DNA of 64,000 nt from IMG/VR virus record IMGVR_UViG_3300031994_005355; one strand, 5' to 3'. Shown one piece after another: positions 1,431-48,182 of this stretch. The translations under genes and the position numbers were made by a program. Under the pieces are notes generated by a model. It searched no databases. It was not told where the DNA came from and saw only the letters and a program-made list of their open reading frames with translations. Each line of letters starts with the position of its first letter. The stretch's first letter is position 1. Origin of the DNA: a virus (lineage: Duplodnaviria; Heunggongvirae; Uroviricota; Caudoviricetes).

Positions 1431-1838
1431 ATGAACAATTATCATTCACATAATCGACACAAATATCTTCTACAGTTTCATTTGATATTTGTAGTGAAAT
1501 ATCGTAAAGCATTACTAAATATTAAGAAGATTGACGAAGATATTAAACAATTATTATTTGACAGTTGTCAGAAATACAATGTAGAAATTAAGTACATGGA
1601 AACAGATAAAGATCACTGTCACATGATGATCTCTACAGATCCAACAATCAGATTGTCTGACTTAGTCAGGTCTATGAAGTCATTTTCAGCATTTCATATT
1701 TGGAAAAAGCACGAAGGTATCCTTAAGAACTTCTTTTGGAAAGAACGTACATTCTGGACAGATGGCTACTTCATATCCTCTATTGGAGAAGTATCAGAAG
1801 AGACATTAAAGCAATATATAGAAAATCAAGGAAAATAA
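1431..1838 (+). CDS. tnpA: IS200/IS605 Y1 (HuH) transposase TnpA
   Basis: 135 aa; HuH-like HSHNRH motif near N-term, conserved KYRK, C-terminal TDGYFISSIG catalytic-Tyr region typical of IS200/IS608 TnpA. Confidence 0.85.
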   Translation: MNNYHSHNRHKYLLQFHLIFVVKYRKALLNIKKIDEDIKQLLFDSCQKYNVEIKYMETDKDHCHMMISTDPTIRLSDLVRSMKSFSAFHIWKKHEGILKNFFWKERTFWTDGYFISSIGEVSEETLKQYIENQGK

Positions 1839-1861
1839 GAATAAGAAAGGAGGTAGTATAC

Positions 1862-3475
1862 ATGGCAGACAGATATGAATTTTTACAAATTGTTGATAAT
1901 GTTCTTTATTATAAAAACTTTGGTTATGATAGCAAATTAAATGTTCTACATTATTTACTTAATGCTATTACTCTACAACATGAGCTACTTCCTATCTTTC
2001 ACAAAGTTAGCTCTGAAGAAGGTTTTTATTCTATTTACTGTACATTAAATAGTAAATACTATAATGTATTTCTAAATGGACACAGACAAAAGCTATTAGT
2101 CTCTAATGGTAAGAAGAGATTTCTAAATCAAATAATGGGTAACTGTAGATTACTCTACAATCGTATGGTAGCTAGAAACAATTACTGCATAGATCATAAA
2201 GAAGATACATTTGTGAAAAAATATGCTGAGTATACCAATCGTGGTTATAAGAATTATCATGATGGATATACATTACAATATGGTGAATATTTAACCTATG
2301 GTAGATATGATAAGAAGACTGAATCTTACTCACTATTAGTTTCTTATCCCAAAGAAGAAACTTTCTTTAATGGTTATTCCAGTATGTACTACAATTGCGT
2401 ATTACAACATTTTTTAGAAGCACGTAACCGTGCTTTTAAGGGACTTGGTAAGAGACCAACCTTTAAGAGTAAACATGGAAGTCAGAGTTGCCAGTTATCT
2501 TGTAACTGCTCAACTGATAGTTATGGATATAAAAACTTCAATTATTTCCAGCTCTTTAGTGTAGGGTACAATATGCATGATTATTCAGGCAGTAACAGAA
2601 CTAAGGTAGCTAAACTTTTTAGAGTAAATGAGGAGAATAATTGGAGAAAACCTAGATGTCAACACAGATTAGGTCTAAATCTAAACAAATCATGTACTAC
2701 TATTCAATCAAGAGATAAGTCTTATGAAATCAACACACTGACATTTACTATGTCTAAAAATCGTAAACCTGTATCTGCATATCTTAAGGATGATAACTTT
2801 GGAGCTAAGACAGTAACAATAACACGGGAGCCAAATGGTAAGTATTATGTATCTTTTCCAGTATGGGATTGTGTCGAAGTTCCTGAACCTAATGATAATG
2901 TAGTAGCATTTGACTTTGGAGTTAAAACTTTTCTTACATATTCAGATGGCTCTACAGAGGAAATGCCCAAATTCTTCGATGTCTACAAGAAACATCTTGA
3001 CAGAGTAAACACTGCTCTCCAAGGTACAACTAAGAACTCTAAGAAACACAAGAAGCTTCAATGTAAATTGGCTAATATTCATGCAAAGATCAAAAATTCC
3101 AGACGCAATTTCCATCATCAACTGACTCACAAAATGGTAAGTGAAAACCAAGTTATCATTAGTGAGGATCTTGATATTAAGGAAATGCTTCAGAATAAAT
3201 CTTTGCCTGCAGAGTTCCATCGTCATGTCGCTGACGCTTCTTGGTACGAGTTCACAAGACAATTAGAGTACAAATCTAAACGCTATGGAAGAACTTACAT
3301 CAAAGTTCCAAGACACTTTGCCTCATCTCAAATTTGCTCTAAATGTGGTAAGATCCATACTGAGATGAAAGATCTTTCCAATCGTCAAATGATTTGTAGT
3401 TGTGGAAACAACATCGATCGAGATCACAATGCTGCAATCAATATTGAGCAATTAGGTCTCTTAATGATATCGTAA
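1862..3475 (+). CDS. tnpB: TnpB (OrfB) RuvC-like RNA-guided nuclease, 537 aa
   Basis: ATG 1862 (M43 of track ORF) after GGAGGT RBS; RuvC-I VVAFDFGVKTF, RuvC-II IISEDLDIKEM, zinc finger CSKCGK...CSCGN, RuvC-III DRDHNAAINI. Confidence 0.85.
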   Translation: MADRYEFLQIVDNVLYYKNFGYDSKLNVLHYLLNAITLQHELLPIFHKVSSEEGFYSIYCTLNSKYYNVFLNGHRQKLLVSNGKKRFLNQIMGNCRLLYNRMVARNNYCIDHKEDTFVKKYAEYTNRGYKNYHDGYTLQYGEYLTYGRYDKKTESYSLLVSYPKEETFFNGYSSMYYNCVLQHFLEARNRAFKGLGKRPTFKSKHGSQSCQLSCNCSTDSYGYKNFNYFQLFSVGYNMHDYSGSNRTKVAKLFRVNEENNWRKPRCQHRLGLNLNKSCTTIQSRDKSYEINTLTFTMSKNRKPVSAYLKDDNFGAKTVTITREPNGKYYVSFPVWDCVEVPEPNDNVVAFDFGVKTFLTYSDGSTEEMPKFFDVYKKHLDRVNTALQGTTKNSKKHKKLQCKLANIHAKIKNSRRNFHHQLTHKMVSENQVIISEDLDIKEMLQNKSLPAEFHRHVADASWYEFTRQLEYKSKRYGRTYIKVPRHFASSQICSKCGKIHTEMKDLSNRQMICSCGNNIDRDHNAAINIEQLGLLMIS

Positions 3476-9566: not shown

Positions 9567-9896
9567 ATGAAAATTTGGTATTTATACTACAATGAAAAGA
9601 CTAAGCAAATAGATTATGCTGAGCATTCTGTGAAAGACTTTCGTAGCGATTGGGAAACACCAAGTAATGTTGATGAATTCAAGCATCAATGTAACACAGC
9701 AGTAGATCACGCAATTAAGGCTGCTGAATGTTACAATAGAGATTTACAGTCTTTTGAATTACAGATTCATAAGTGCAAGGACTGTGGTATCTATTTCTTC
9801 ACAAGCACCAATGAAGAACTGTGGTTCAAAGCAAACAACCTATCAGTCCCTAAGCGCTGCAATAAATGCAGAGCAAAGAGACGCAAGTCTGCATGA
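9567..9896 (+). CDS. zinc-ribbon protein with basic KRRKSA tail (paralog of 12435..12764)
   Basis: CKDCGIYFFT...PKRCxxCRxKRRKSA conserved between the two copies. Confidence 0.55.
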   Translation: MKIWYLYYNEKTKQIDYAEHSVKDFRSDWETPSNVDEFKHQCNTAVDHAIKAAECYNRDLQSFELQIHKCKDCGIYFFTSTNEELWFKANNLSVPKRCNKCRAKRRKSA

Positions 9897-10517: not shown

Positions 10518-12044
10518 ATGAGAAAAACTTGTCTTGTAAAACAAGTTGTGCGTATACGACTTTATCCAAATAAAACTCAACAGATATGGCTTGACTGTAA
10601 TTTTCAAAATGCAATTGACTATCATAATTATCTCCTTGCAAATATTTATGAAGATGACGTGGAAATTGATGAAGAAACTGGTGAAGAAAAAGATGTTATT
10701 AGAATAAACTGGGATACTATAAATAGTAAATATGGATTGGCAACATTACAATCTAAATTCCATTATGCTCTTAGAAATGTTACAGAAGATAGAATACGTA
10801 CAGATCGAAATAATTTAAAGATTACACAGTATTATCGTGGACGTACTATTGAAAATATTTATGATCAAGTATGCAATGACGTTAAAAAGAACTTTTGTAC
10901 ATTTTATCGTGATGGTAAAGGGAAACCAAGATTTAAATCAAACCGTGGTAGAGTAACATTTAGGATGCCACAAAATAGCCGTGACTTACATTTAGTAAGA
11001 CGCAAAGATGAAATGAATCATGATAATGGTTTTGATTTCAAAATTAATAGAATTGAGAAGAAACACAGCTCTAAATTATCTCATAATTTAGGTTGGTTAC
11101 ATATACCATCTTGCGGTGCTGGTAATGATAATGCTGATGATTTTATAAAGTGCTTTGCACCATGTAACATAAGTAAGGAAGATATCAGTTCTATCACATT
11201 TATACGTGAAGCATCTGGAAAGTATTACGCCACTATTGTATTACGTATAGGAAGAGTCTATTTATTTAAAAAGCAAGCACTTGATGATATGTTATGTGAA
11301 AAACAAGTAGGTGTTGACATAAATCTTTCACCTAAAACAAGAGTAGTTACTAGTACTTTTCAGGGTGATGTTACTGAGTTCAAGTTCGAACAAAAAGAAG
11401 AGATAATACAAGCACCAACACCATATAAAGATTATTTCTCCAAACTACGTAAAGAGCAACGTTCACTCTCTCGCAAAGTAAAGTTTTCTAAGAATTGGTT
11501 TAAGCAAAAACAAAAGGTTGCTCACATTCATGAAAAGATTGCAAATATACGATTGAATTTCAATAGACAAACAGCAGCCTATCTAACCAAGAATTACCAA
11601 TCAATCGCAATCGAAGATTTGAGTATTACTCAAATGAAACGTGGTCAACCACGTTGGTTCCAGAAGCTCTACAATGATGCTAACCTATACCAGTTACGAC
11701 AGTGTATTCGCTGGTCTTGTCTTAAGACAGGAAGAGAACTAAACTACGTTTCACCAGAGCATACCTCAAAAACTTGTCATGATTGTTGGTACACTAATCA
11801 TGATTTGAAACTAGGACAGAGTTCCTGGGTATGCCCTAACTGTGGGGTAATCCATCATCGAGATAGGAATGCTGCTAGGAATATCTACAGCCTTGCATGG
11901 GCCTATGACGAGGTTGAAGGTGAATTATTAGAGAATCAAGTAACCTATGATCCATTCGAAGAGCGACAGCCAGTAAATAATCTCTATTTCCTAGAAAATC
12001 TTTCAAAACGTATTGGAGAAGAAGTAACAACAGTTTCAGCTTAA
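10518..12044 (+). CDS. tnpB: TnpB (OrfB) RuvC-like nuclease, 508 aa
   Basis: RuvC-I VGVDINLSP, RuvC-II IAIEDLSITQM, Zn finger CHDCW...CPNCG, RuvC-III HRDRNAARNI. Confidence 0.85.
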   Translation: MRKTCLVKQVVRIRLYPNKTQQIWLDCNFQNAIDYHNYLLANIYEDDVEIDEETGEEKDVIRINWDTINSKYGLATLQSKFHYALRNVTEDRIRTDRNNLKITQYYRGRTIENIYDQVCNDVKKNFCTFYRDGKGKPRFKSNRGRVTFRMPQNSRDLHLVRRKDEMNHDNGFDFKINRIEKKHSSKLSHNLGWLHIPSCGAGNDNADDFIKCFAPCNISKEDISSITFIREASGKYYATIVLRIGRVYLFKKQALDDMLCEKQVGVDINLSPKTRVVTSTFQGDVTEFKFEQKEEIIQAPTPYKDYFSKLRKEQRSLSRKVKFSKNWFKQKQKVAHIHEKIANIRLNFNRQTAAYLTKNYQSIAIEDLSITQMKRGQPRWFQKLYNDANLYQLRQCIRWSCLKTGRELNYVSPEHTSKTCHDCWYTNHDLKLGQSSWVCPNCGVIHHRDRNAARNIYSLAWAYDEVEGELLENQVTYDPFEERQPVNNLYFLENLSKRIGEEVTTVSA

Positions 12045-12434: not shown

Positions 12435-12764
12435 ATGAAAGTTTGGTATCTGTACTTTAATGAAGAAGAACAGAAAGTTGCATATGCAGAGTCGTCAATA
12501 CCCAGTATCAATGCAGACTGGTCAATGCCTAGCAACATTGACGAATGTAAATATGCATGTAATACAAATCTTGAGACAACATTTAAAGCAGTAGAAGGTT
12601 ACAATGATGATCTACGGTCTAGTATGCTTACTTTACATAAGTGCAAAGACTGTGGAATCTACTTCTTCACAAATGTAGATGAAGAAGAGTGGTACAAAGG
12701 AAGAGGTATGTCAATACCTAAGCGTTGTGAAACCTGTCGTCGTAAGAGACGTAAGTCTGCATGA
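12435..12764 (+). CDS. zinc-ribbon protein with KRRKSA tail (paralog of 9567..9896)
   Basis: Same length (109 aa) and conserved C-terminal zinc ribbon. Confidence 0.55.
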   Translation: MKVWYLYFNEEEQKVAYAESSIPSINADWSMPSNIDECKYACNTNLETTFKAVEGYNDDLRSSMLTLHKCKDCGIYFFTNVDEEEWYKGRGMSIPKRCETCRRKRRKSA

Positions 12765-26591: not shown

Positions 26592-26984
26592 ATGAGCAGT
26601 ATTGGTATAGCATTAAGCTATGATATGAAAGCGCAGATAGCTAGAGACTTAGCATTAGAAGCACCAACAATAGATGAACAAACAGCATTGGTAGATTCTC
26701 TACCATTAACTGTATTACAAAATTATATTAGTGTAAATATATCTAAAACACACTCTTTATTTGTAGTACAAGGGCATAATATATTAATATCAAATGCAAC
26801 TATTGATATGTTTAAAAAATATGTTGGATATGATTTGGGACAAGAAAATGTAGAACAAGCTACTTATATAGGATATGGCGATACAGACTTGACTGAATGT
26901 ACATTAACAGATACAGAATTATCAAGACGTGCTGAATATTCTTTAAATGTAGAAATAGAAGGTAGACGTAATGAGCTCTTTTAA
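26592..26984 (+). CDS. hypothetical protein (tandem paralog of 27524..27913)
   Basis: MSSIGIALSYDMKAQIARDLALEAPTIDEQTALVD vs MSSISAALSYDIKAQIARDLSLNAPTIDDQTALVD; both end EGRRN(E/G)LF. Confidence 0.5.
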   Translation: MSSIGIALSYDMKAQIARDLALEAPTIDEQTALVDSLPLTVLQNYISVNISKTHSLFVVQGHNILISNATIDMFKKYVGYDLGQENVEQATYIGYGDTDLTECTLTDTELSRRAEYSLNVEIEGRRNELF

Positions 26985-27531
26985 TATTTTAAACTTAAAA
27001 GTAGAGACAACTGCTAAATTAGATATAAATATAAAAGAGTTAAATAAACTATTAGAACAATTTCAAACTACAGATAATTTTATACTAACTGTCAATTTCA
27101 CAAATGATAAGTTTCTTAGTTTATTTTATAACTATAAATATAAACAACTTGCCATGCTATTATTAAACACTAAGGGTAACACATTAGTTGATAATATAGT
27201 TTTAACAGACAAAGAATATAAATTATTTAAAATATCATTACGCATATTACTTTCACGATTAAAACTGAAACAATATGACTATTCAGACACAAGAGGTATA
27301 GTAAAACTCTGGTTAACAAAATTAGGTGAAATCAAAACTAAGCATAAATTAGAGTTGTTATTATTTTATAAAAATAATAACATGAACTTTGATGAACAGT
27401 CACAATTAGATGCTAAAAACATTTCAAAAGGTGTCTGTAAAGAGCATAAAATAAGTAGTACCGATATAATGGAACGTGCTTACTTATATAGAACAATACA
27501 AGGAGATATAAAGGAGGTGTATTATGAGTAG
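26971..27531 (+). CDS. hypothetical protein (between tandem paralogs)
   Basis: ORF track. Confidence 0.45.
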   Translation: MSSFNILNLKVETTAKLDINIKELNKLLEQFQTTDNFILTVNFTNDKFLSLFYNYKYKQLAMLLLNTKGNTLVDNIVLTDKEYKLFKISLRILLSRLKLKQYDYSDTRGIVKLWLTKLGEIKTKHKLELLLFYKNNNMNFDEQSQLDAKNISKGVCKEHKISSTDIMERAYLYRTIQGDIKEVYYE

Positions 27532-27913
27532 TATTAGTGCAGCATTAAGTTATGACATTAAAGCCCAAATAGCTCGTGATTTATCTTTAAATGCACCAAC
27601 TATCGATGATCAAACTGCTTTAGTCGATGCCTTACCTGTTAATATTATAGAGCGTTACTTTTTAGTAAATATATTCAAGTCACATATATTATATGATGTA
27701 CATGGACATAAAATCATTATTCCTAAGAGGCTACTTAATACTGTTAAGGAATTATTTGGTACCCCGTATGATTATGATGATATTGAACATTTTACATATA
27801 TTGCTGCTGATGCTGACTTTGAGAATTGTGAATTCGATGATGACGATTTATCATACAGAGTAGAAGCAGTAATAAATAAGAATATAGAAGGCAGACGTAA
27901 TGGTCTATTTTAA
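27524..27913 (+). CDS. hypothetical protein (tandem paralog of 26592..26984)
   Basis: See 26592 entry. Confidence 0.5.
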   Translation: MSSISAALSYDIKAQIARDLSLNAPTIDDQTALVDALPVNIIERYFLVNIFKSHILYDVHGHKIIIPKRLLNTVKELFGTPYDYDDIEHFTYIAADADFENCEFDDDDLSYRVEAVINKNIEGRRNGLF

Positions 27914-29644: not shown

Positions 29645-29782
29645 GCTGTGGTGGCGGAAAAGGTAGACGCTTATTCTAATAAGGAAAGTTACGACACATT
29701 GCCTCTTTTATTAGGGGCCTGAAGTATGACCGTTGGAATACTTTTCATGCGAGGTGACAGAAATACAAATCCTCGTCCACAG
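29645..29782 (+). ncRNA. non-canonical tRNA-like RNA X1
   Basis: Canonical tRNA 5-prime half (acceptor gctgtgg, U8, D-arm gcg-gaaaaGGtaga-cgc with A14/G18G19/A21), ~80-nt variable insert, conserved 3-prime module atgcgaggtgacagaaatacaaatcctcgtc (6-bp stem, 16-nt loop) then acceptor complement ccacagt; paralog of X2. Confidence 0.4.
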
Positions 29783-29801
29783 TGATTTTGAAAGGTAAGT
29801 A

Positions 29802-30395
29802 ATGAAGCATATAATAAAATGTATAGTAACATTACTGTTACTTGTAATAGTAAATACGACCAGTTGCTTTGCAGCAACTAAATATAGAGTTTCTTTTCCT
29901 AAAGACTACAATGTTCTTCTAGTAGGGGACTCTCGGACTGTCGGAACAATGAAGACAGTTGATGTTGATAACATAGCCTACGTATGTGAGGTAGGTCAAG
30001 GTTATAAATGGCTGAACAATAAAGCTCAATATGATATTATTCAAAAAACAAAACCAGGTACAAAAGTTGTTTTTAACCTTGGTGTTAATGATGTGAGTAA
30101 TAAAGAATGGTACAAGCACATGTATAATTACTTAGCAAGGACACTACAAGATAGAGGTTGTCTAGTGTATTTCGAAACTGTTAATCCAGTATCGGAGAAA
30201 TGCAATCACCCATCAAATAAGGACATTGATGAATTCAATAGTTACATGTTCAAGTATCTTGAAGGTGTATCATTTATCAACACAAATGACTACTTGAAGA
30301 ATAACGGTTATGAAACAGTTGACGGTCTACACTACACCGAGGATACAACACAAAAGACATTTGACTATGTCAGTGAAGTGCTTGCACTCGAGTAA
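29802..30395 (+). CDS. secreted SGNH/GDSL-family hydrolase (esterase/lipase-like)
   Basis: Signal peptide; block I LLVGDSRTVG (GDS), block III LGVNDV, block V DGLHYT. Confidence 0.65.
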   Translation: MKHIIKCIVTLLLLVIVNTTSCFAATKYRVSFPKDYNVLLVGDSRTVGTMKTVDVDNIAYVCEVGQGYKWLNNKAQYDIIQKTKPGTKVVFNLGVNDVSNKEWYKHMYNYLARTLQDRGCLVYFETVNPVSEKCNHPSNKDIDEFNSYMFKYLEGVSFINTNDYLKNNGYETVDGLHYTEDTTQKTFDYVSEVLALE

Positions 30396-30415: not shown

Positions 30416-30640
30416 GTGCCTATGGATAAGAAAGAACTGTATAAAGAGAACCTTCTACGTGAATATCGTAGTATGTTCAGAGCTCTTTGCCGTATGACAT
30501 CTTACTATGAGAAACTCACTACAGACGGTTTTGTATTAAATGATGAAGATAAAACGTTTATAAATACAGTTATAGATAAAACTGAAAATCATTTCATTAA
30601 ACGAATAAATAATTGGGTATCTAAAGGAAGGCTAAAATAA
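30416..30640 (+). CDS. small protein translationally coupled to downstream nucleotidyltransferase
   Basis: 74 aa; stop TAA overlaps next ATG (TAATG). Confidence 0.4.
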   Translation: MPMDKKELYKENLLREYRSMFRALCRMTSYYEKLTTDGFVLNDEDKTFINTVIDKTENHFIKRINNWVSKGRLK

Positions 30641-31134
30641 TGACATATAGAGGTGAAATTGTAGGTGCACTTAATAGAGTTAATAATCTACTAAAAGGTC
30701 ATAATTTATATGCTGATTTAACTATAGTTGGTGGTTCAGCATTAATATTGAATGGTATAAACTCTATAGAAACTATTGATATTGATACTTGTAATACGTT
30801 AAGTAGAGAAGTTAAAGAAATATTTGAAGATTGTTCAGTAGATATAAATGATGATGCAAGAGAATATGAAAGTAATTATGAAGGTTTAGATTTTATAGAA
30901 CCAGACTGGTTACAGTTCAGTAATATCACGACACGTTATTTAGACATTGGCGGTGTTGTAGTAACAAAAATGAAAGATACAAATCCGGATAAATTGAACA
31001 ATCTAGCTTATGTTTTGAACGAAGAATTGGGTGTAGATTTAACTGTTGATTCTATCAGCAAATGGTTTGAAGATCAAAATGTAGATTATGATACTACTGA
31101 TATAGAAAACTTTTTGACTGAAATTGATTACTAA
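30640..31134 (+). CDS. nucleotidyltransferase-fold (Pol-beta-like/MNT-like) protein
   Basis: IVGGSALILNGINSIETIDID matches hG[GS]x9-13DxD NTase motif. Confidence 0.5.
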   Translation: MTYRGEIVGALNRVNNLLKGHNLYADLTIVGGSALILNGINSIETIDIDTCNTLSREVKEIFEDCSVDINDDAREYESNYEGLDFIEPDWLQFSNITTRYLDIGGVVVTKMKDTNPDKLNNLAYVLNEELGVDLTVDSISKWFEDQNVDYDTTDIENFLTEIDY

Positions 31135-33306: not shown

Positions 33307-33427
33307 ACTTGGGTGACGGAATAGGTAGACGTTTTAAGGTCAAAAGTAAAGTTCCAGTGTTGAGAACGCACAATGAAACTAGGGCTGACTATGCGAGGTG
33401 ACAGAAATGCAAATCCTCGCCCCAAGT
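33307..33427 (+). ncRNA. non-canonical tRNA-like RNA X2 (immediately upstream of tmRNA)
   Basis: acceptor acttggg/cccaagt, D-arm acg-gaataGGtaga-cgt, variable ~60 nt, conserved module atgcgaggtgacagaaatgcaaatcctcgcc; acceptor stems of X1 and X2 differ but both pair (covariation). Confidence 0.4.
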
Positions 33428-33431
33428 ATAA

Positions 33432-33810
33432 GGGCCTGTACTGGTTTCGACGGGGATATAAAAGTACAACTTGCATCGGGTGGTCACCTATAACCAACTT
33501 AAATACAGACGCTAAGCCTGTAGCTATGGCTGCTTAATCTTAAGATTAAGTAGTTCCGACTTGTTCGGCTCTGTTAGAGATGTTGCACACTAACTCAACT
33601 CTACAGTGACTAAAGTAATTACGTGTGATGTCGGCAACTCAACAAGCGTGAGATACAGTCAATCCGATGAAACTGTGATATCGCTAACCCTATCGGTAAT
33701 GGTTTGTTGTATGCCTAGTAACAAGGGTAAATGTTACTGAAATATGAATAAGATGTAGATGGTTGTATGACTAGTATTTTCGGACAGGGGTTCGACTCCC
33801 CTCAGGTCCA
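33432..33810 (+). ncRNA. ssrA: tmRNA (ssrA)
   Basis: 5-prime GGGCCUGUACUGGUUUCGACGGGG matches tmRNA 5-prime consensus; 3-prime T-arm aggggttcgactcccct and acceptor caggtcc pairing with 5-prime gggcctg; internal ACUUAAAUA followed by frame ...D A K P V A M A A TAA (tag-like); terminal CTA instead of CCA. Confidence 0.75.
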
Positions 33811-33826
33811 CTACAAGGAGGAAGCT

Positions 33827-34201
33827 ATGAATATTAAGAAAAATTATACATATTTATTTGTTAGATTTATGTCATCAGATGCACTACTGGCATTCCTAGA
33901 TAGAATGCCTAATAGCGTTCAAGGAAATATGCAATATGACGACATTACAGATTCATATGTCTTTGCAGTAAAAGGATACCTACGTGTAGGTAATGCTATA
34001 AACAGTAATGTTGTACGGTTTTATACAACAGCATGTGACTATGGTAATATAGTTATGATAGATGATTCTATTGGATATAATATAGGTTACATAAAACACA
34101 TGTTTAAAGTACCGCATAATAATCTGTTTGATGAAGTTAATCGCACAATATTACTGACTCAGAAAATGTTTGAAATGTTGAAACGACATTCTGAGAATTA
34201 A
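33827..34201 (+). CDS. hypothetical protein
   Basis: ATG 33827 (M21 of track ORF) after AAGGAGG that lies just 3-prime of tmRNA. Confidence 0.45.
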   Translation: MNIKKNYTYLFVRFMSSDALLAFLDRMPNSVQGNMQYDDITDSYVFAVKGYLRVGNAINSNVVRFYTTACDYGNIVMIDDSIGYNIGYIKHMFKVPHNNLFDEVNRTILLTQKMFEMLKRHSEN

Positions 34202-43645: not shown

Positions 43646-43717
43646 ATGCCCCGTAGTCAAGAGGTAAGGCATCGGACTTTGACTCCGTCATTCGCGGGTT
43701 CGAATCCCGCCGGGGTA
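43646..43717 (+). tRNA. tRNA-Gln (anticodon TTG)
   Basis: Acceptor tgccccg/cggggta, anticodon loop ctttgac, T-arm gcggg-ttcgaat-cccgc; resembles bacterial tRNA-Gln. Confidence 0.8.
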
Positions 43718-43737
43718 GTTTATTAAAGGATTAAATC

Positions 43738-45198
43738 ATGACTACATTAAATATTGAGGAACTGCTTTATTCAAATAGTATATGGGAATCAGTACTGGGT
43801 GAAATGTGGGTACGTAAAGTAGAACCTGAAACGGTTGCAAGAATTACTATGTTAGATTATCGCTACGATATTTGTAATAAACTTATTACAGGTAGTTATA
43901 AATTTAATCCACCTAAATTAGTACATATACCGAAAGATGATGGAACACTGCGTGATCTTCTTATTTTAGAGGACCAAGATAGGATAGTCATGCAGGTTCT
44001 ATATAAAATATATTATAGTTTATACAAAAGCAATATTCATTCATCATGTATGAGTTATCAGACTGGAGTATCTGTAAAAGATATTGCTGTACAAATACGT
44101 AACGGACTTAAATCAGAGTTACAGCGTTATAAACTTGATATATCAAAATATTTCGACTCTGTGCCTCAAGATGTAATAAACAGAGAATTGAATAATATGG
44201 ATCCTACATCTGGACCAACAGTATCTCTTTATAATTTCTATAATGATAACCGTATCATTGTGCATGGTAAAGAAGTTGAGCATTTCAAATCATTATGTCA
44301 AGGTTGTTCATTTAGTGCATTACTAGCAAATGTTATACTCTATGATATTGATGAATATTTATCAGCGCACGCTGATATGTATATCCGTTATTCTGACGAT
44401 ATGTACATTCAAGATGCTAATGTTAATGCATTAATTGTTAAAGCAAAAGAGATGCTTGCTCATAAAGGTCTCATACTAAAAGACTCTAAGGTTCAGCAAC
44501 TTGCAACCTCATTTGATTTTGTTGGTGTACATATTTCACCTACTAGACTATCCATAGGTAAAAAAGGATTAAGAAATATATGCAATAATATCAAACAAAA
44601 GTTGAAGAATAAAACTAGTCTTGAAAGAGCAATACGTGCAGTGCAGAGTTATTTATTATCTTCTGATACTAATGGTTATTCAGCACTAAGTTATTGGTTT
44701 AATATTTGTACAAATGTGGATGACATTATAAAGTTGGACAGAATGATTAAAGATGAAATAAGATATCACTTCACCAACAAACATAATATTGTACATAATA
44801 TACATCAGTTACCTAATCAAGCTTTCAAAGAAAGTGGTTGGGTGTCACTTGAATATTTATACAGATTGTACAAACACGATAAGAATGCATATAAAGCATA
44901 TAGTGCTTACATTCTGCATAAGTATATGCTTACACCTAGTAAGATACGTTCGTATATGACAATTGATAAGATATCTAGTGATTTACTCAAATTTTGGGAA
45001 ACAGCAAAATATGCTAAGCATAGTCCATTTATAACGTATGAAAAACCACTAGATGTTGATTTCAATATCTCATCGTATGAAAGTAATACTGCACGAGAAT
45101 ATATGTGTAACATCATTAAAAATGCAACAATTGATTTTGGTGAGGATAAGTTCATAAAAGTAACTGATGAGTTATTTTTATTTAAAGATTGGTTTTGA
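43738..45198 (+). CDS. reverse transcriptase (group II intron/retron/Abi-UG lineage) with thumb-like C-terminal extension
   Basis: RT1-2 LVHIPKDDGTLRDLLILEDQDRIVMQVL, RT3 YKLDISKYFDSV, RT4 QGCSFSALLANVIL, RT5 YIRYSDDMYI, RT6 GLILKDSKV, RT7 FDFVGVHI; ~190 aa after RT7. Confidence 0.85.
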   Translation: MTTLNIEELLYSNSIWESVLGEMWVRKVEPETVARITMLDYRYDICNKLITGSYKFNPPKLVHIPKDDGTLRDLLILEDQDRIVMQVLYKIYYSLYKSNIHSSCMSYQTGVSVKDIAVQIRNGLKSELQRYKLDISKYFDSVPQDVINRELNNMDPTSGPTVSLYNFYNDNRIIVHGKEVEHFKSLCQGCSFSALLANVILYDIDEYLSAHADMYIRYSDDMYIQDANVNALIVKAKEMLAHKGLILKDSKVQQLATSFDFVGVHISPTRLSIGKKGLRNICNNIKQKLKNKTSLERAIRAVQSYLLSSDTNGYSALSYWFNICTNVDDIIKLDRMIKDEIRYHFTNKHNIVHNIHQLPNQAFKESGWVSLEYLYRLYKHDKNAYKAYSAYILHKYMLTPSKIRSYMTIDKISSDLLKFWETAKYAKHSPFITYEKPLDVDFNISSYESNTAREYMCNIIKNATIDFGEDKFIKVTDELFLFKDWF

Positions 45199-47534: not shown

Positions 47535-48182
47535 ATGGATATAATGACAATAATATCTTTTCTTACTGCACTGGGTAATACTATGACACACCCTGAGACA
47601 ATAGTAATATGTGGTGGTACTTCTATCGCATTGGAACATGGATTTAGACAATCGACTGAAGATATTGACTGCATAGAGTGCAGTGCTTATACAGCAAAGA
47701 TAGCACATATAATAGCACGACATTACACTTTGCATATAGCATTAAGTAGTCATGTTTGTGTAACTGACTCGTACAGTCCAAAGTTATTGTATTATGCAAC
47801 TACTTATGGTAAGTTTGGAAATCTTACTGTAAAAACAATATGTGGTGTACCATTACTTTGTATGAAGTTAAAGTCATATCGTCAAAATAGTAAAGATAGG
47901 ATTGACTGTGAATTTCTACTCAAAGAAGCAATTACTTATGGAAAGACGTACGACGATGTTCTTACTACGTTCAAAGACATTTATGGTAATGAAGCACTAA
48001 TGCCTATAGCTGCTGAGACAGCTTTACGTAGAGCATTCAACATACAAAATGTTGAAGAGATACAGGATAAACTTTCTAAGTTTTCAAAACTTATCAATGA
48101 TGGTCTTCTTAGTATAAATGACATTCCGGTAGAATATCGTAATCAAATTCTTGAATATACTTTGGAGAAGGCTGATGACTAA
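47535..48182 (+). CDS. nucleotidyltransferase-fold protein
   Basis: ICGGTSIALEHGFRQSTEDIDCIE matches GGxS...DxD NTase motif. Confidence 0.5.
   Translation: MDIMTIISFLTALGNTMTHPETIVICGGTSIALEHGFRQSTEDIDCIECSAYTAKIAHIIARHYTLHIALSSHVCVTDSYSPKLLYYATTYGKFGNLTVKTICGVPLLCMKLKSYRQNSKDRIDCEFLLKEAITYGKTYDDVLTTFKDIYGNEALMPIAAETALRRAFNIQNVEEIQDKLSKFSKLINDGLLSINDIPVEYRNQILEYTLEKADD

What the first reader, a model, noticed from the sequence alone, without database searches (positions are those of the whole stretch)
33307..33810. Tandem arrangement: tRNA-like X2 directly upstream (4-nt spacer) of an element-encoded tmRNA
X2 (the same class as X1) ends at about 33427 and the tmRNA acceptor strand GGGCCUG begins at about 33432. 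The tmRNA has a good match to the 5-prime consensus (UUCGACGGGG), a canonical T-arm and an acceptor stem closed by G-U. It also has a tag-like reading frame preceded by ACUUAAAUA (as in the B. subtilis tmRNA) that would append ...DAKPVAMAA. The strong RBS for the next gene (AAGGAGG) starts only a few nt after the tmRNA 3-prime end, which terminates in CUA rather than CCA. An element-borne ssrA without smpB, processed from a tRNA-like/tmRNA tandem, is unusual. The tRNA-like leader may serve as an RNase P or RNase Z processing handle, or the pair may act together.
Basis: partly seen in the sequence, partly recalled or inferred. Interest (0 to 1): 0.6.

Follow-up and report, generated by a model that had tools for sequence, protein, structure and literature searches.

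The report
Phage tmRNA beside overlooked tRNA-like RNA
A genuine transfer-messenger RNA gene in what is probably a huge phage sits 4 bases after "X2", and although that spacing is just the normal tight packing of phage tRNA-gene arrays, X2 belongs to a widespread, unannotated family of anticodon-less tRNA-like RNAs found almost only in phages.

Summary
A full-length tmRNA lies at 33432-33813 (Rfam 110.8 bits; ARAGORN tag AKPVAMAA), preceded by tRNA-like X2 (33307-33427) after a 4-nt spacer, ending ACUA, with an RBS 5 nt after the discriminator base. Phage tmRNAs are already known. Unencoded CCA is the norm here (164 of 182 neighbouring tRNA genes). The 4-nt spacer is the array norm: X precedes ordinary tRNAs at 2-9 nt in 12 other loci. 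A close relative of this tmRNA (L212) has no X abutting it. So the tandem is most likely a co-transcribed small-RNA cluster cut apart by RNase P and RNase Z, not a dedicated pair. The real finding is X. It has a 7-bp acceptor, a tRNA-Leu-type D-arm, no anticodon loop, a hypervariable insert, a 6-bp T-like stem, and a 16-nt loop that reads as a T-loop plus 9 nt. I delimited 91 distinct copies with strong covariation. X is a subfamily of a much larger superfamily with a 7-nt UGCAAAU loop. That superfamily occurs in cultured Lactobacillus phages, where no feature is annotated under any match, and Rfam 15 does not match it. Its function is unknown.

The parts
33307..33427 (+). X2, an anticodon-less class-II tRNA-like RNA of 121 nt. 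Acceptor 5' strand 33307-13; UG; tRNA-Leu-type D-arm ACGGAAUAGGUAGACGU 33316-32; variable core closed by GGUCA/UGACU; AUG; 6-bp T-like stem 33393-98 with 33415-20; 16-nt loop UGACAGAAAUGCAAAU 33399-414; acceptor 3' strand 33421-27.
   Evidence: Sequence. Paralogue alignment with compensatory changes. Family covariation. Constrained fold. Not called a tRNA by ARAGORN or Rfam.
33428..33431 (+). 4-nt spacer AUAA. A33428 would be the discriminator base of X2, and RNase P would cut before G33432.
   Evidence: Sequence. Spacers of 2-9 nt between X and the next tRNA occur in 12 other loci. Cleavage is inferred.
33432..33813 (+). One-piece tmRNA (ssrA). The mature 3' end is probably A33810, with CCA added after transcription.
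   Evidence: ARAGORN. Rfam RF00023, 110.8 bits, full length. G3:U70 and the T-arm read from the sequence. Relatives in L212, L232 and L205.
33511..33537 (+). Tag reading frame GCU AAG CCU GUA GCU AUG GCU GCU UAA, encoding AKPVAMAA followed by stop.
   Evidence: ARAGORN coding part 80-106 of the gene. The context AAC/GAC-GCU-AA is shared by the three other phage tmRNAs.
33815..33829 (+). Shine-Dalgarno AAGGAGG (33815-21) and ATG (33827-29) of the next ORF (33827-34201, 124 aa, an orphan protein).
   Evidence: Sequence. ORF list. No homologue other than itself. No + strand terminator between the tmRNA and this ORF.
29645..29783 (+). X1, a paralogue of X2 of 139 nt. Acceptor GCUGUGG/CCACAGU; D-arm GCGGAAAAGGUAGACGC; loop UGACAGAAAUACAAAU. 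It is followed 18 nt later by the ATG of an SGNH/GDSL-like secreted hydrolase ORF (29802-30395).
   Evidence: Its core is homologous to that of L150:598-736.

Best explanation
The region is a short small-RNA gene cluster in what is probably a huge phage. X2 and a complete tmRNA are most likely transcribed together with the flanking genes and then cut apart by the host tRNA-maturation enzymes. RNase P would cut at the 5' ends of X2 and of the tmRNA (before G33432). RNase Z or exonucleases would cut after the discriminator bases (A33428 and A33810). The CCA-adding enzyme would then supply the missing CCA. The tmRNA carries the alanine identity pair G3:U70, so it should be charged by AlaRS and, together with the host's SmpB, rescue stalled ribosomes while appending AKPVAMAA.

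X2 is not a leader made for the tmRNA. It is an independent gene of a widespread, essentially phage-specific family of tRNA-Leu-derived RNAs. These keep the tRNA top half and elbow: a 7-bp acceptor, U8, a D-arm with G18G19, A15/U48, and a T-like arm. They have lost the anticodon loop, have a 6-bp T stem (a 13-bp acceptor/T helix) and carry a hypervariable insert. Such genes are packed head-to-tail with tRNAs, so X2 abutting the tmRNA is a consequence of array packing.

Shown: identity and boundaries of the tmRNA; the X structure by covariation; the distribution of X, its array context and spacer statistics. Inferred: co-transcription, the processing enzymes, charging, and use of host SmpB. The function of X itself is unknown. 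My best guess is a stable tRNA-shaped frame that is processed like a tRNA and presents a variable RNA insert, or acts as a top-half mimic.
For: tmRNA: with G3:U70 and the T-arm read. All four phage tmRNAs found in X-bearing loci keep G3:U70, UUUCGAC, the T-arm and the GCU-AA resume context.

No + strand terminator between X2, the tmRNA and the next ORF; promoter-like sites are at chance level.

CCA is unencoded in all three window tRNAs and in 164 of 182 tRNAs of related loci.

X family: 19 IMG/VR and at least 118 metagenome loci carry the loop motif, giving 91 distinct delimited copies. Covariation: 98.8% paired, 241 double-change cells against 53 in shuffles, and the unselected T stem 99.5% paired. 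The core-closing stem is perfect in 52 of 79 copies against 14 expected.

Array behaviour: 182 tRNAs in 576 kb of X loci. X is followed by a tRNA at 2-9 nt in 12 cases, and a tRNA is followed by X at -1 to 4 nt in 5 cases. 24 of 101 adjacent t(m)RNA pairs are 10 nt or less apart.

Only the window has X abutting a tmRNA. The nearest relative of this tmRNA (L212) has its X 1.25 kb upstream.

No conserved protein neighbour.
Against: No transcript or end-mapping data exist, so co-transcription and cleavage sites are inferred. Three of the four tmRNAs in X-bearing loci do have an X upstream on the same strand (4, about 100 and 1250 nt away), so a loose association cannot be excluded with n=4. The 13-bp acceptor/T helix and the 16-nt loop might alter or block RNase P or RNase Z recognition. 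The pseudoknot region of the tmRNA aligns poorly, with posterior about 0.2-0.5, and PK1 looks degenerate, so full tmRNA activity is not proven. SmpB could be encoded in the roughly 230 kb of the genome outside the window. The host is unknown.
Confidence: 0.75

Rival explanations
1. One reading: X2 is a dedicated 5' processing handle or functional partner of the tmRNA, and the pair acts as a unit.
For: The two are 4 nt apart with no terminator between them. In L232 an X lies about 100 nt upstream of a tmRNA, and in L212 one lies 1250 nt upstream on the same strand.
Against: Of 91 X copies, 90 have no abutting tmRNA. Twelve abut ordinary tRNAs at the same 2-9 nt spacing. X1 in the same window has no tmRNA. 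The closest relative of this tmRNA (L212) has AT-rich sequence, not X, immediately upstream. A tmRNA has its own complete tRNA-like domain for RNase P.
Confidence: 0.08
2. X elements are pure punctuation marks, comparable to plant-mitochondrial t-elements. They would be tRNA-shaped RNase P/Z cleavage signals that define the ends of neighbouring RNAs and mRNAs, with no function as free RNAs.
For: Only the parts that RNase P and RNase Z recognise (acceptor/T helix and elbow) are conserved, while the rest is hypervariable. 28 of 91 copies are followed within 45 nt by an SD plus start codon, and 13 by a tRNA or tmRNA. In ordinary-sized phages, superfamily members sit at module junctions, for example before HNH and terminase genes. 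Precedent: PMC1920247.
Against: A simple signal needs neither a 20-150-nt insert closed by a conserved stem nor a strictly kept D-arm and special loop. Homologous cores keep their hairpins through base changes (X1 against L150). Unrelated phages of one host share an identical acceptor and T-arm, which suggests recognition beyond mere shape.
Confidence: 0.2
3. X1 and X2 are decaying tRNA-Leu pseudogenes, or remnants of an attachment site, with no function.
For: The D-arm is nearly identical to that of bacterial tRNA-Leu, on my reading from memory of the E. coli sequence. No anticodon loop is present. tRNA finders do not call them.
Against: Compensatory changes occur in all three helices across 72 sequences. 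The same architecture occurs in hundreds of unrelated phage contigs and in cultured phages. Both acceptor strands covary, which an att remnant would not do.
Confidence: 0.03
4. The window is a bacterial chromosome and this is the host's own ssrA locus.
For: None beyond the presence of a complete tmRNA.
Against: All ORFs lie on one strand. About 100 ORFs are mostly without Pfam or PHROG matches. No housekeeping genes and no SmpB were found. The contig is 293,727 bp and is recovered almost identically from several samples. X elements are nearly absent from 185,579 species genomes, with 3 true copies on short MAG contigs.
Confidence: 0.02

Closest known systems
Phage-encoded tmRNAs (Bacillus phage G, Bxz1-type mycobacteriophages, huge phages)
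   Same: A complete one-piece ssrA carried by a large phage next to tRNA genes. No smpB is seen nearby. The tag ends in AA.
   Different: The tag is short and unusual (AKPVAMAA, ending MAA rather than LAA). The pseudoknot region is divergent. The genome is an orphan lineage with no close relative in GenBank phages or IMG/VR.
tRNA genes in phage tRNA arrays (polycistronic, matured by RNase P and RNase Z)
   Same: X is co-oriented with tRNAs and packed against them at 0-9 nt. It has a 7-bp acceptor, U8, a D-arm with GG and a T-like arm. CCA is not encoded.
   Different: X has no anticodon loop, a 6-bp rather than 5-bp T stem, a loop of UGCAAAU or 16 nt instead of UUCRAAU, an insert of 20-150 nt, and a non-conserved discriminator base.
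tRNA-like processing elements: plant-mitochondrial t-elements (PMC1920247); mascRNA (the latter from my own knowledge)
   Same: tRNA-shaped, lacking a functional anticodon, and presumably cut by RNase P and RNase Z next to other transcripts.
   Different: A different kingdom and no sequence relation. X has a strongly conserved specific scaffold and a long variable insert.
tRNA-like-domain-only mini-tmRNA of mycobacteriophage DS6A (PMC4131195, PMC11915505)
   Same: A small phage tRNA-like RNA without a coding function that could interfere with host machinery.
   Different: X lacks G3:U70 (the 3:70 pair is UA, CG, AU or GC) and has a tRNA-Leu-type D-arm, so it is not a tmRNA-derived domain.
Bacterial Y RNA YrlA (PMC4201824)
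   Same: A tRNA-like domain joined to a non-tRNA module; also found in some phages.
   Different: No Rfam YrlA match. No Ro60/TROVE protein in the window. The architecture differs.
Non-proteinogenic tRNA-Gly of staphylococci (PMC4574755)
   Same: tRNAs with altered elbow nucleotides that bind EF-Tu weakly and serve outside the ribosome. The superfamily loop has G at position 55.
   Different: Those tRNAs keep an anticodon arm and normal size. X keeps G18G19 and C56. Aminoacylation of X is untested, and the discriminator is A in only about 40-50% of copies.

Membership tests
tmRNA (Rfam RF00023, one-piece) | Covariance-model score above the curated threshold over the full length | tested here: met
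   110.8 bits against 47, model positions 1-374, E=2e-42. ARAGORN also calls it.
tmRNA (Rfam RF00023, one-piece) | tRNA-like domain: 7-bp acceptor with G3:U70, canonical T-arm, discriminator A | tested here: met
   GGGCCUG/CAGGUCC with G33434:U33807; T-loop UUCGACU; A33810.
tmRNA (Rfam RF00023, one-piece) | Tag reading frame with a GCN resume codon, ending in a stop codon at helix 5 | tested here: met
   GCU at 33511 through UAA at 33535-37, giving AKPVAMAA. The context is conserved in three other phage tmRNAs.
tmRNA (Rfam RF00023, one-piece) | Pseudoknots PK1-PK4 | tested here: inconclusive
   This region aligns with posterior about 0.2-0.5 and several non-canonical pairs. The four phage tmRNAs are too divergent there for covariation. 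PK1 looks reduced to a hairpin or a 2+4-bp knot when read by eye.
tmRNA (Rfam RF00023, one-piece) | Encoded 3' CCA | tested here: not met
   The end is ACUA. This is not a defining feature in CCA-less genomes: 164 of 182 neighbouring tRNA genes lack CCA.
tmRNA (Rfam RF00023, one-piece) | SmpB partner available | not testable with these tools
   No PF01668 match among 101 window ORFs.
Canonical tRNA | Anticodon stem with a 7-nt loop | tested here: not met
   X1 and X2 have no such arm. Family-wide, the segment after the D-arm is 10-15 nt, and a mini-hairpin there is not significant (31 observed against 22 expected).
Canonical tRNA | 5-bp T stem with a 7-nt UUCRANY loop; called by tRNA finders | tested here: not met
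   6-bp stem with a covarying sixth pair, plus a 16-nt loop. No ARAGORN or Rfam call.
Canonical tRNA | 7-bp acceptor, U8, D-arm with G18G19 | tested here: met
X family (defined here: 7/6 anticodon-less tRNA-Leu-like RNA with a 16-nt loop) | Acceptor 7 bp, then UG, then a tRNA-Leu-type D-arm, a closed variable core, YAUG, a 6-bp stem, the loop UGACAGAAAUNCAAAU, and the acceptor 3' strand | tested here: met
   X1 and X2 fit every element. Their loop has A or G where 88 of 92 copies have U. That matches the superfamily's UGCAAAU or UACAAAU loop plus the 9-nt insert.
tRNA-like-domain-only mini-tmRNA (DS6A type) | G3:U70 alanine identity pair in a tmRNA-type tRNA-like domain | tested here: not met
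   X2 has U3:A70 and X1 has U3:A70. In the family the pair is UA 43, CG 12, AU 10, GC 7.
YrlA / bacterial Y RNA | Rfam YrlA match and an adjacent Ro60 (TROVE) gene | tested here: not met
   No Rfam match down to E=10. No TROVE domain in the window.
t-element-like processing signal | Cleavage by RNase P at the 5' end and RNase Z at the 3' end, defining neighbouring transcript ends | not testable with these tools
   Only the positional data are compatible.

The most novel reading that the evidence does not exclude
X and its larger UGCAAAU-loop superfamily are a previously undescribed, abundant, phage-specific class of RNA. It would be a tRNA-Leu-derived frame that is matured like a tRNA, is kept off the ribosome by its missing anticodon, 13-bp acceptor/T helix and altered T-loop, and presents a hypervariable insert. 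Its acceptor and T-arm appear tuned to the host. It could be a natural tRNA scaffold for small regulatory or decoy RNAs, or a carrier or mimic aimed at a host tRNA-binding enzyme or defence system.
Probability: 0.35. Interest if true: 0.8.

Novelty: new variant of a known kind. Interest (0 to 1): 0.55.

Why it matters
The tandem itself is ordinary: a phage tmRNA packed against a neighbouring small-RNA gene. Following it exposed an RNA family that standard tools miss. It is structurally well supported, occurs in hundreds of phage contigs from many environments, sits inside phage tRNA arrays or ahead of packaging genes, and has no annotated feature under any match in long-studied cultured Lactobacillus phages (LP65, phiJL-1, ATCC 8014-B2, Lenus). 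Phage tRNA arrays are currently interpreted mainly as codon-supply or anti-defence devices. A conserved tRNA-shaped RNA that cannot decode shows that these arrays also hold non-decoding members. Because cultured phage-host pairs carry it, its expression, processing, charging and phenotype can be tested directly. For annotation, it explains otherwise empty gaps in tRNA arrays and warns against the gene call that starts at 33767 inside the tmRNA.

Tried and rejected
- Relaxed and intron-allowing ARAGORN runs did not call X1 or X2; they gave only scattered low-quality calls.
- Rfam at E up to 10 found nothing on X2 or on a typical X. A weak tmRNA_permuted hit (E=0.11) is driven by the tmRNA's own 5' part.
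- The "cow-rumen-3" hit in L205 is unrelated by sequence.
- Close relatives of the window were sought in GenBank phages and IMG/VR by DNA and by flanking proteins. None was found.
- The loop alone (16 nt) as an IMG/VR probe gave only chance hits.
- I looked for a conserved protein partner of X and of the superfamily. There is none; the largest clusters cover 4 of 86 and 9 of 64 loci, and Pfam families are heterogeneous.
- I looked for a shared motif in the variable cores. There is none.
- An intron hypothesis for the core or the 9-nt insert has no supporting pairing. I judged this by eye only.
- Antisense matches of X2 within the window reach at most 13 nt, which is chance level.
- The sigma-70 promoter scan was at chance level.
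- The mini-hairpin after the D-arm was not significant.
- The recalled G-U-G-C loop of staphylococcal cell-wall tRNA-Gly could not be confirmed in the paper I read, so it remains only a lead.
- The host could not be identified, so the tag could not be compared with the host's.

Full report
**1. What is at the coordinates**

ARAGORN finds four genes in the window: tRNA-Leu(UAA), tRNA-Gln(UUG), tRNA-Leu(UAG), and a tmRNA at 33432-33811 with tag AKPVAMAA. Rfam's tmRNA model matches 33432-33813 end to end at 110.8 bits, against a gathering score of 47, with E=2e-42.

Reading the sequence:
- The acceptor GGGCCUG pairs with CAGGUCC and includes the alanine identity pair G3:U70.
- The T-arm is canonical (UUCGACU loop).
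- The discriminator is A33810, followed by CUA rather than CCA.
- The tag frame is 33511-33537.
- AAGGAGG (33815-21) and an ATG (33827) follow at once.

X2 occupies 33307-33427 and is separated from the tmRNA by AUAA. Two need correction. The resume codon is GCU, which gives AKPVAMAA. The pseudoknot region is aligned with low confidence, so the pseudoknots are not verified.

**2. The genome**

- All ORFs lie on the + strand and GC is about 34%.
- Most proteins have no PHROG or Pfam match.
- The few matches include IS200/IS605 TnpA and TnpB, a reverse transcriptase, a flotillin-like protein, a phage tail lysozyme domain, HNH and GNAT.
- The window is 99.995-100% identical to a JGI metagenome contig and a Logan contig. 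The protein downstream of the tmRNA exists only on an ENA contig of 293,727 bp.
- No relative exists in GenBank phages or, by the flanking protein, in IMG/VR.

This is best read as an orphan huge phage, which is an inference. No SmpB domain occurs among the 101 window ORFs. The rest of the genome could not be read.

**3. Is a phage tmRNA, a CUA end or a 4-nt spacer unusual? No.**

Phage ssrA genes are documented in Bacillus phage G, eight Bxz1-type mycobacteriophages and, as a tRNA-like domain only, DS6A (PMC4131195). Huge phages are reported to carry tmRNAs and sometimes SmpB (PMC7162821).

None of the window's three tRNAs encodes CCA, and 164 of 182 tRNA genes in related loci do not either.

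In those loci 24 of 101 adjacent t(m)RNA pairs are 10 nt or less apart. X is followed by a tRNA at 2-9 nt in 12 cases and preceded by one at -1 to 4 nt in five cases.

**4. What X is**

X1 (29645-29783) and X2 share several features:
- a 7-bp acceptor with two fully compensated pairs;
- UG followed by a D-arm (GCGGAAAAGGUAGACGC in X1, ACGGAAUAGGUAGACGU in X2). This is almost that of bacterial tRNA-Leu, on my reading from memory of the E. coli sequence;
- a nearly identical 3' hairpin.

Several contigs hold 2-3 copies. I delimited 91 distinct copies of 103-273 nt.

The architecture is: acceptor (7 bp), UG, D-arm, 10-15 A/U-rich nt, a closing stem around a variable insert, (C/U)AU, a 6-bp stem, the loop UGACAGAAAUUCAAAU, and the acceptor 3' strand.

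On 72 scaffold sequences:
- 98.8% of cells pair, against 27-45% with slid partners.
- 241 cells have changes on both sides, against 53 in shuffles.
- The T-like stem, which played no part in selection, is 99.5% paired, and four of its six pairs show double changes, including the sixth pair.

The acceptor and D stems were used for delimitation, so they are partly biased.

The core-closing stem is perfect in 52 of 79 copies, against 14 expected. A mini-hairpin after the D-arm is not significant. There is no anticodon loop. The cores are hypervariable, with 79 cores falling into 72 unrelated clusters and no shared motif. The discriminator is not conserved (A 36, U 33, G 15, C 7). The 3:70 pair is never G:U in that set.

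**5. X is a subfamily of something larger**

My sample was chosen by the loop, so its invariance is circular. It gave 113 distinct sites. Of these, 75 have a perfect 7-bp acceptor plus an adjacent perfect T stem, which by rough calculation would arise by chance in about 1% of sites.

Of the 75, 54 have a 6-bp stem with the 7-nt loop UGCAAAU and lengths of 99-250 nt, and none has the 16-nt loop. A handful are ordinary tRNA-Leu genes.

The X2 loop reads U + GACAGAAAU + GCAAAU, which is that loop with a 9-nt insertion. X1 corresponds to UACAAAU plus the same insertion.

One core family occurs with either loop type: L294 with UGCAAAU, and L126, L161, L194 and L256 with the 16-nt loop. The insertion is therefore a variant feature, not the essence of the family.

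In L150 an X is followed 4 nt later by a sibling with a canonical UUCAAAU loop and a 4-nt "anticodon" loop. That sibling just reaches the Rfam tRNA threshold at 29.9 bits.

**6. Known or not**

Rfam 15 gives no match to X or to superfamily members, at the gathering threshold or at E up to 10. It does call neighbouring tRNAs, a tmRNA, drum, skipping-rope, cow-rumen-3 and Pistol RNAs.

Four literature searches found no description. A catalogue of about 10,000 candidate viral structured RNAs mentions tRNA-like candidates, but I could not check it for this one (PMC10690425).

In GenBank, 27 phage records match a superfamily member. They are mostly Lactobacillus plantarum phages, including LP65, phiJL-1, ATCC 8014-B2, Lenus, Sha1, P1/P2 and Satyr. 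No feature is annotated under the match in any of the 26 annotated records. In Lenus the element fills the gap between two annotated tRNA-Arg genes. In H1-Guo it lies between a DUF1492 regulator gene and the terminase genes.

Unrelated L. plantarum phages share an identical T-arm and acceptor 3' end while their cores differ. This hints that the acceptor and T-arm sequence is tuned to the host.

In 185,579 species genomes, only 3 of 17 motif hits are true X copies, all on short MAG contigs. The family is therefore essentially phage-borne.

**7. Context and partners**

X loci are dense in tRNAs: 182 in 576 kb, plus four tmRNAs. No protein family accompanies X; the largest cluster covers 4 of 86 loci. 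The same holds for the superfamily, where HNH endonucleases are the commonest downstream neighbours at 6 of 99 ORFs, with terminase, portal, lysis and regulator genes scattered around. X is thus a free-standing RNA gene that presumably works with host machinery.

**8. The tandem**

Only the window has X abutting a tmRNA. L232 has an X about 100 nt upstream, and L212 has one 1.25 kb upstream. In L205 the X copies lie about 3 kb downstream of the tmRNA. The L212 tmRNA is the closest relative of the window's: its first 24 nt differ at one position and it has the same ...CAGGUCCACUA end. It has no X next to it. No terminator separates X2, the tmRNA and the next ORF.

The most economical reading is a co-transcribed cluster resolved by RNase P and RNase Z with CCA addition, as in any tRNA array. 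The tmRNA would then be charged by AlaRS and act with the host SmpB. These steps follow from established tRNA and tmRNA biology and are not shown here.

The tag's MAA end, also seen in L232 (AKNDYQMAA), differs from the common LAA. Whether that changes proteolytic targeting is unknown.

**9. Function of X**

The conservation pattern is an invariant tRNA top half and elbow, including A15/U48 and G18G19, with a hypervariable bottom. It fits two readings:
- a processing signal comparable to plant-mitochondrial t-elements (PMC1920247);
- a stable tRNA-shaped frame that presents a variable insert or mimics the tRNA top half.

I lean to the second reading for three reasons. The insert is kept and closed by a stem. 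Homologous cores conserve their hairpins. The acceptor and T-arm sequence appears host-specific. This remains a guess, at roughly 35-40% against about 20% for pure punctuation.

Aminoacylation is possible in principle, because LeuRS does not read the anticodon (my own knowledge). The variable discriminator argues against uniform leucylation.

**10. Verdict**

The interpretation of a special tRNA-like/tmRNA pair is not supported. The tmRNA is a new member of a known kind. X2 and X1 are members of a widespread tRNA-like RNA family that is absent from Rfam and has no annotated feature under any GenBank match, which merits experimental follow-up in cultured Lactobacillus phages.

Noticed in passing
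window 43647-45198: A reverse transcriptase ORF (43738-45198; PF00078, phrog_1423) starts 19 nt after tRNA-Gln(UUG) (43647-43718). The RT type (retron, group II intron, DGR or defence-related) was not determined.
   Followed up: no
window 1431-3475 and 10518-12044: An IS200/IS605-type unit, with a TnpA Y1 transposase at 1431-1838 and a TnpB/Cas12f-like ORF at 1736-3475. A second, solitary TnpB-like ORF lies at 10518-12044. The associated omega-RNAs were not looked for.
   Followed up: no
window 30640-31134, and a second ORF I did not identify: Two window ORFs match the DUF6036 nucleotidyltransferase family. One is 30640-31134, about 850 nt downstream of X1. By eye the other may be 47535-48182, which lies 83 nt downstream of tRNA-Leu(UAG), but I did not confirm that. 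A link to tRNA 3'-end metabolism is conceivable but untested.
   Followed up: no
window 33767-34201: Public gene calls for this locus start the downstream ORF at 33767, inside the tmRNA (144 aa). The start at 33827, behind AAGGAGG, gives 124 aa and is much more plausible. ORF 33373-33537 (54 aa) is spurious: it runs from X2 into the tmRNA tag.
   Followed up: partly
window 9567-9896 and 12435-12764; 26592-26984 and 27524-27913: Two pairs of clearly paralogous small ORFs, judged by reading the translations. The first pair flanks the second TnpB. They suggest local duplications in this genome.
   Followed up: no
L150:741-823: A sibling of X with the same acceptor 5' strand as X1 (GCUGUGG; its 3' strand ends C rather than U), a canonical UUCAAAU T-loop, a 6-bp T stem and only a 4-nt 'anticodon' loop. 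It scores 29.9 bits on the Rfam tRNA model, just above threshold, so such genes may be mis-annotated as tRNAs.
   Followed up: partly
L397 (phage Lenus MG252693.1) about 2610-2695: Right after the superfamily element, the remaining gap before the second tRNA-Arg holds another unannotated tRNA-like sequence (GCGGGA...CUGGUUCGACUCCAG...UCCCGC). Phage tRNA arrays seem to contain several kinds of uncalled tRNA-like genes.
   Followed up: no
L205:10474-10613(-), L158:1766-1829, L299:3449-3554, L365:2397-2491(-): Other structured RNAs sit in the same phage small-RNA arrays: cow-rumen-3, a Pistol ribozyme, drum and skipping-rope (Rfam gathering-level matches).
   Followed up: no
L123, L250, L223, L246 (X cores): Some X variable cores contain a nested canonical T-arm-like hairpin, for example CGGUUCGAUUCCG. 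This looks like a second tRNA-like module inserted inside the X frame.
   Followed up: no
L232:5118-5421 and window 33511-33537: Two phage tmRNA tags end in MAA (AKNDYQMAA and AKPVAMAA) instead of the usual LAA. L212 and L205 end in QAAA and LQAA. The effect on protease recognition is unknown.
   Followed up: no
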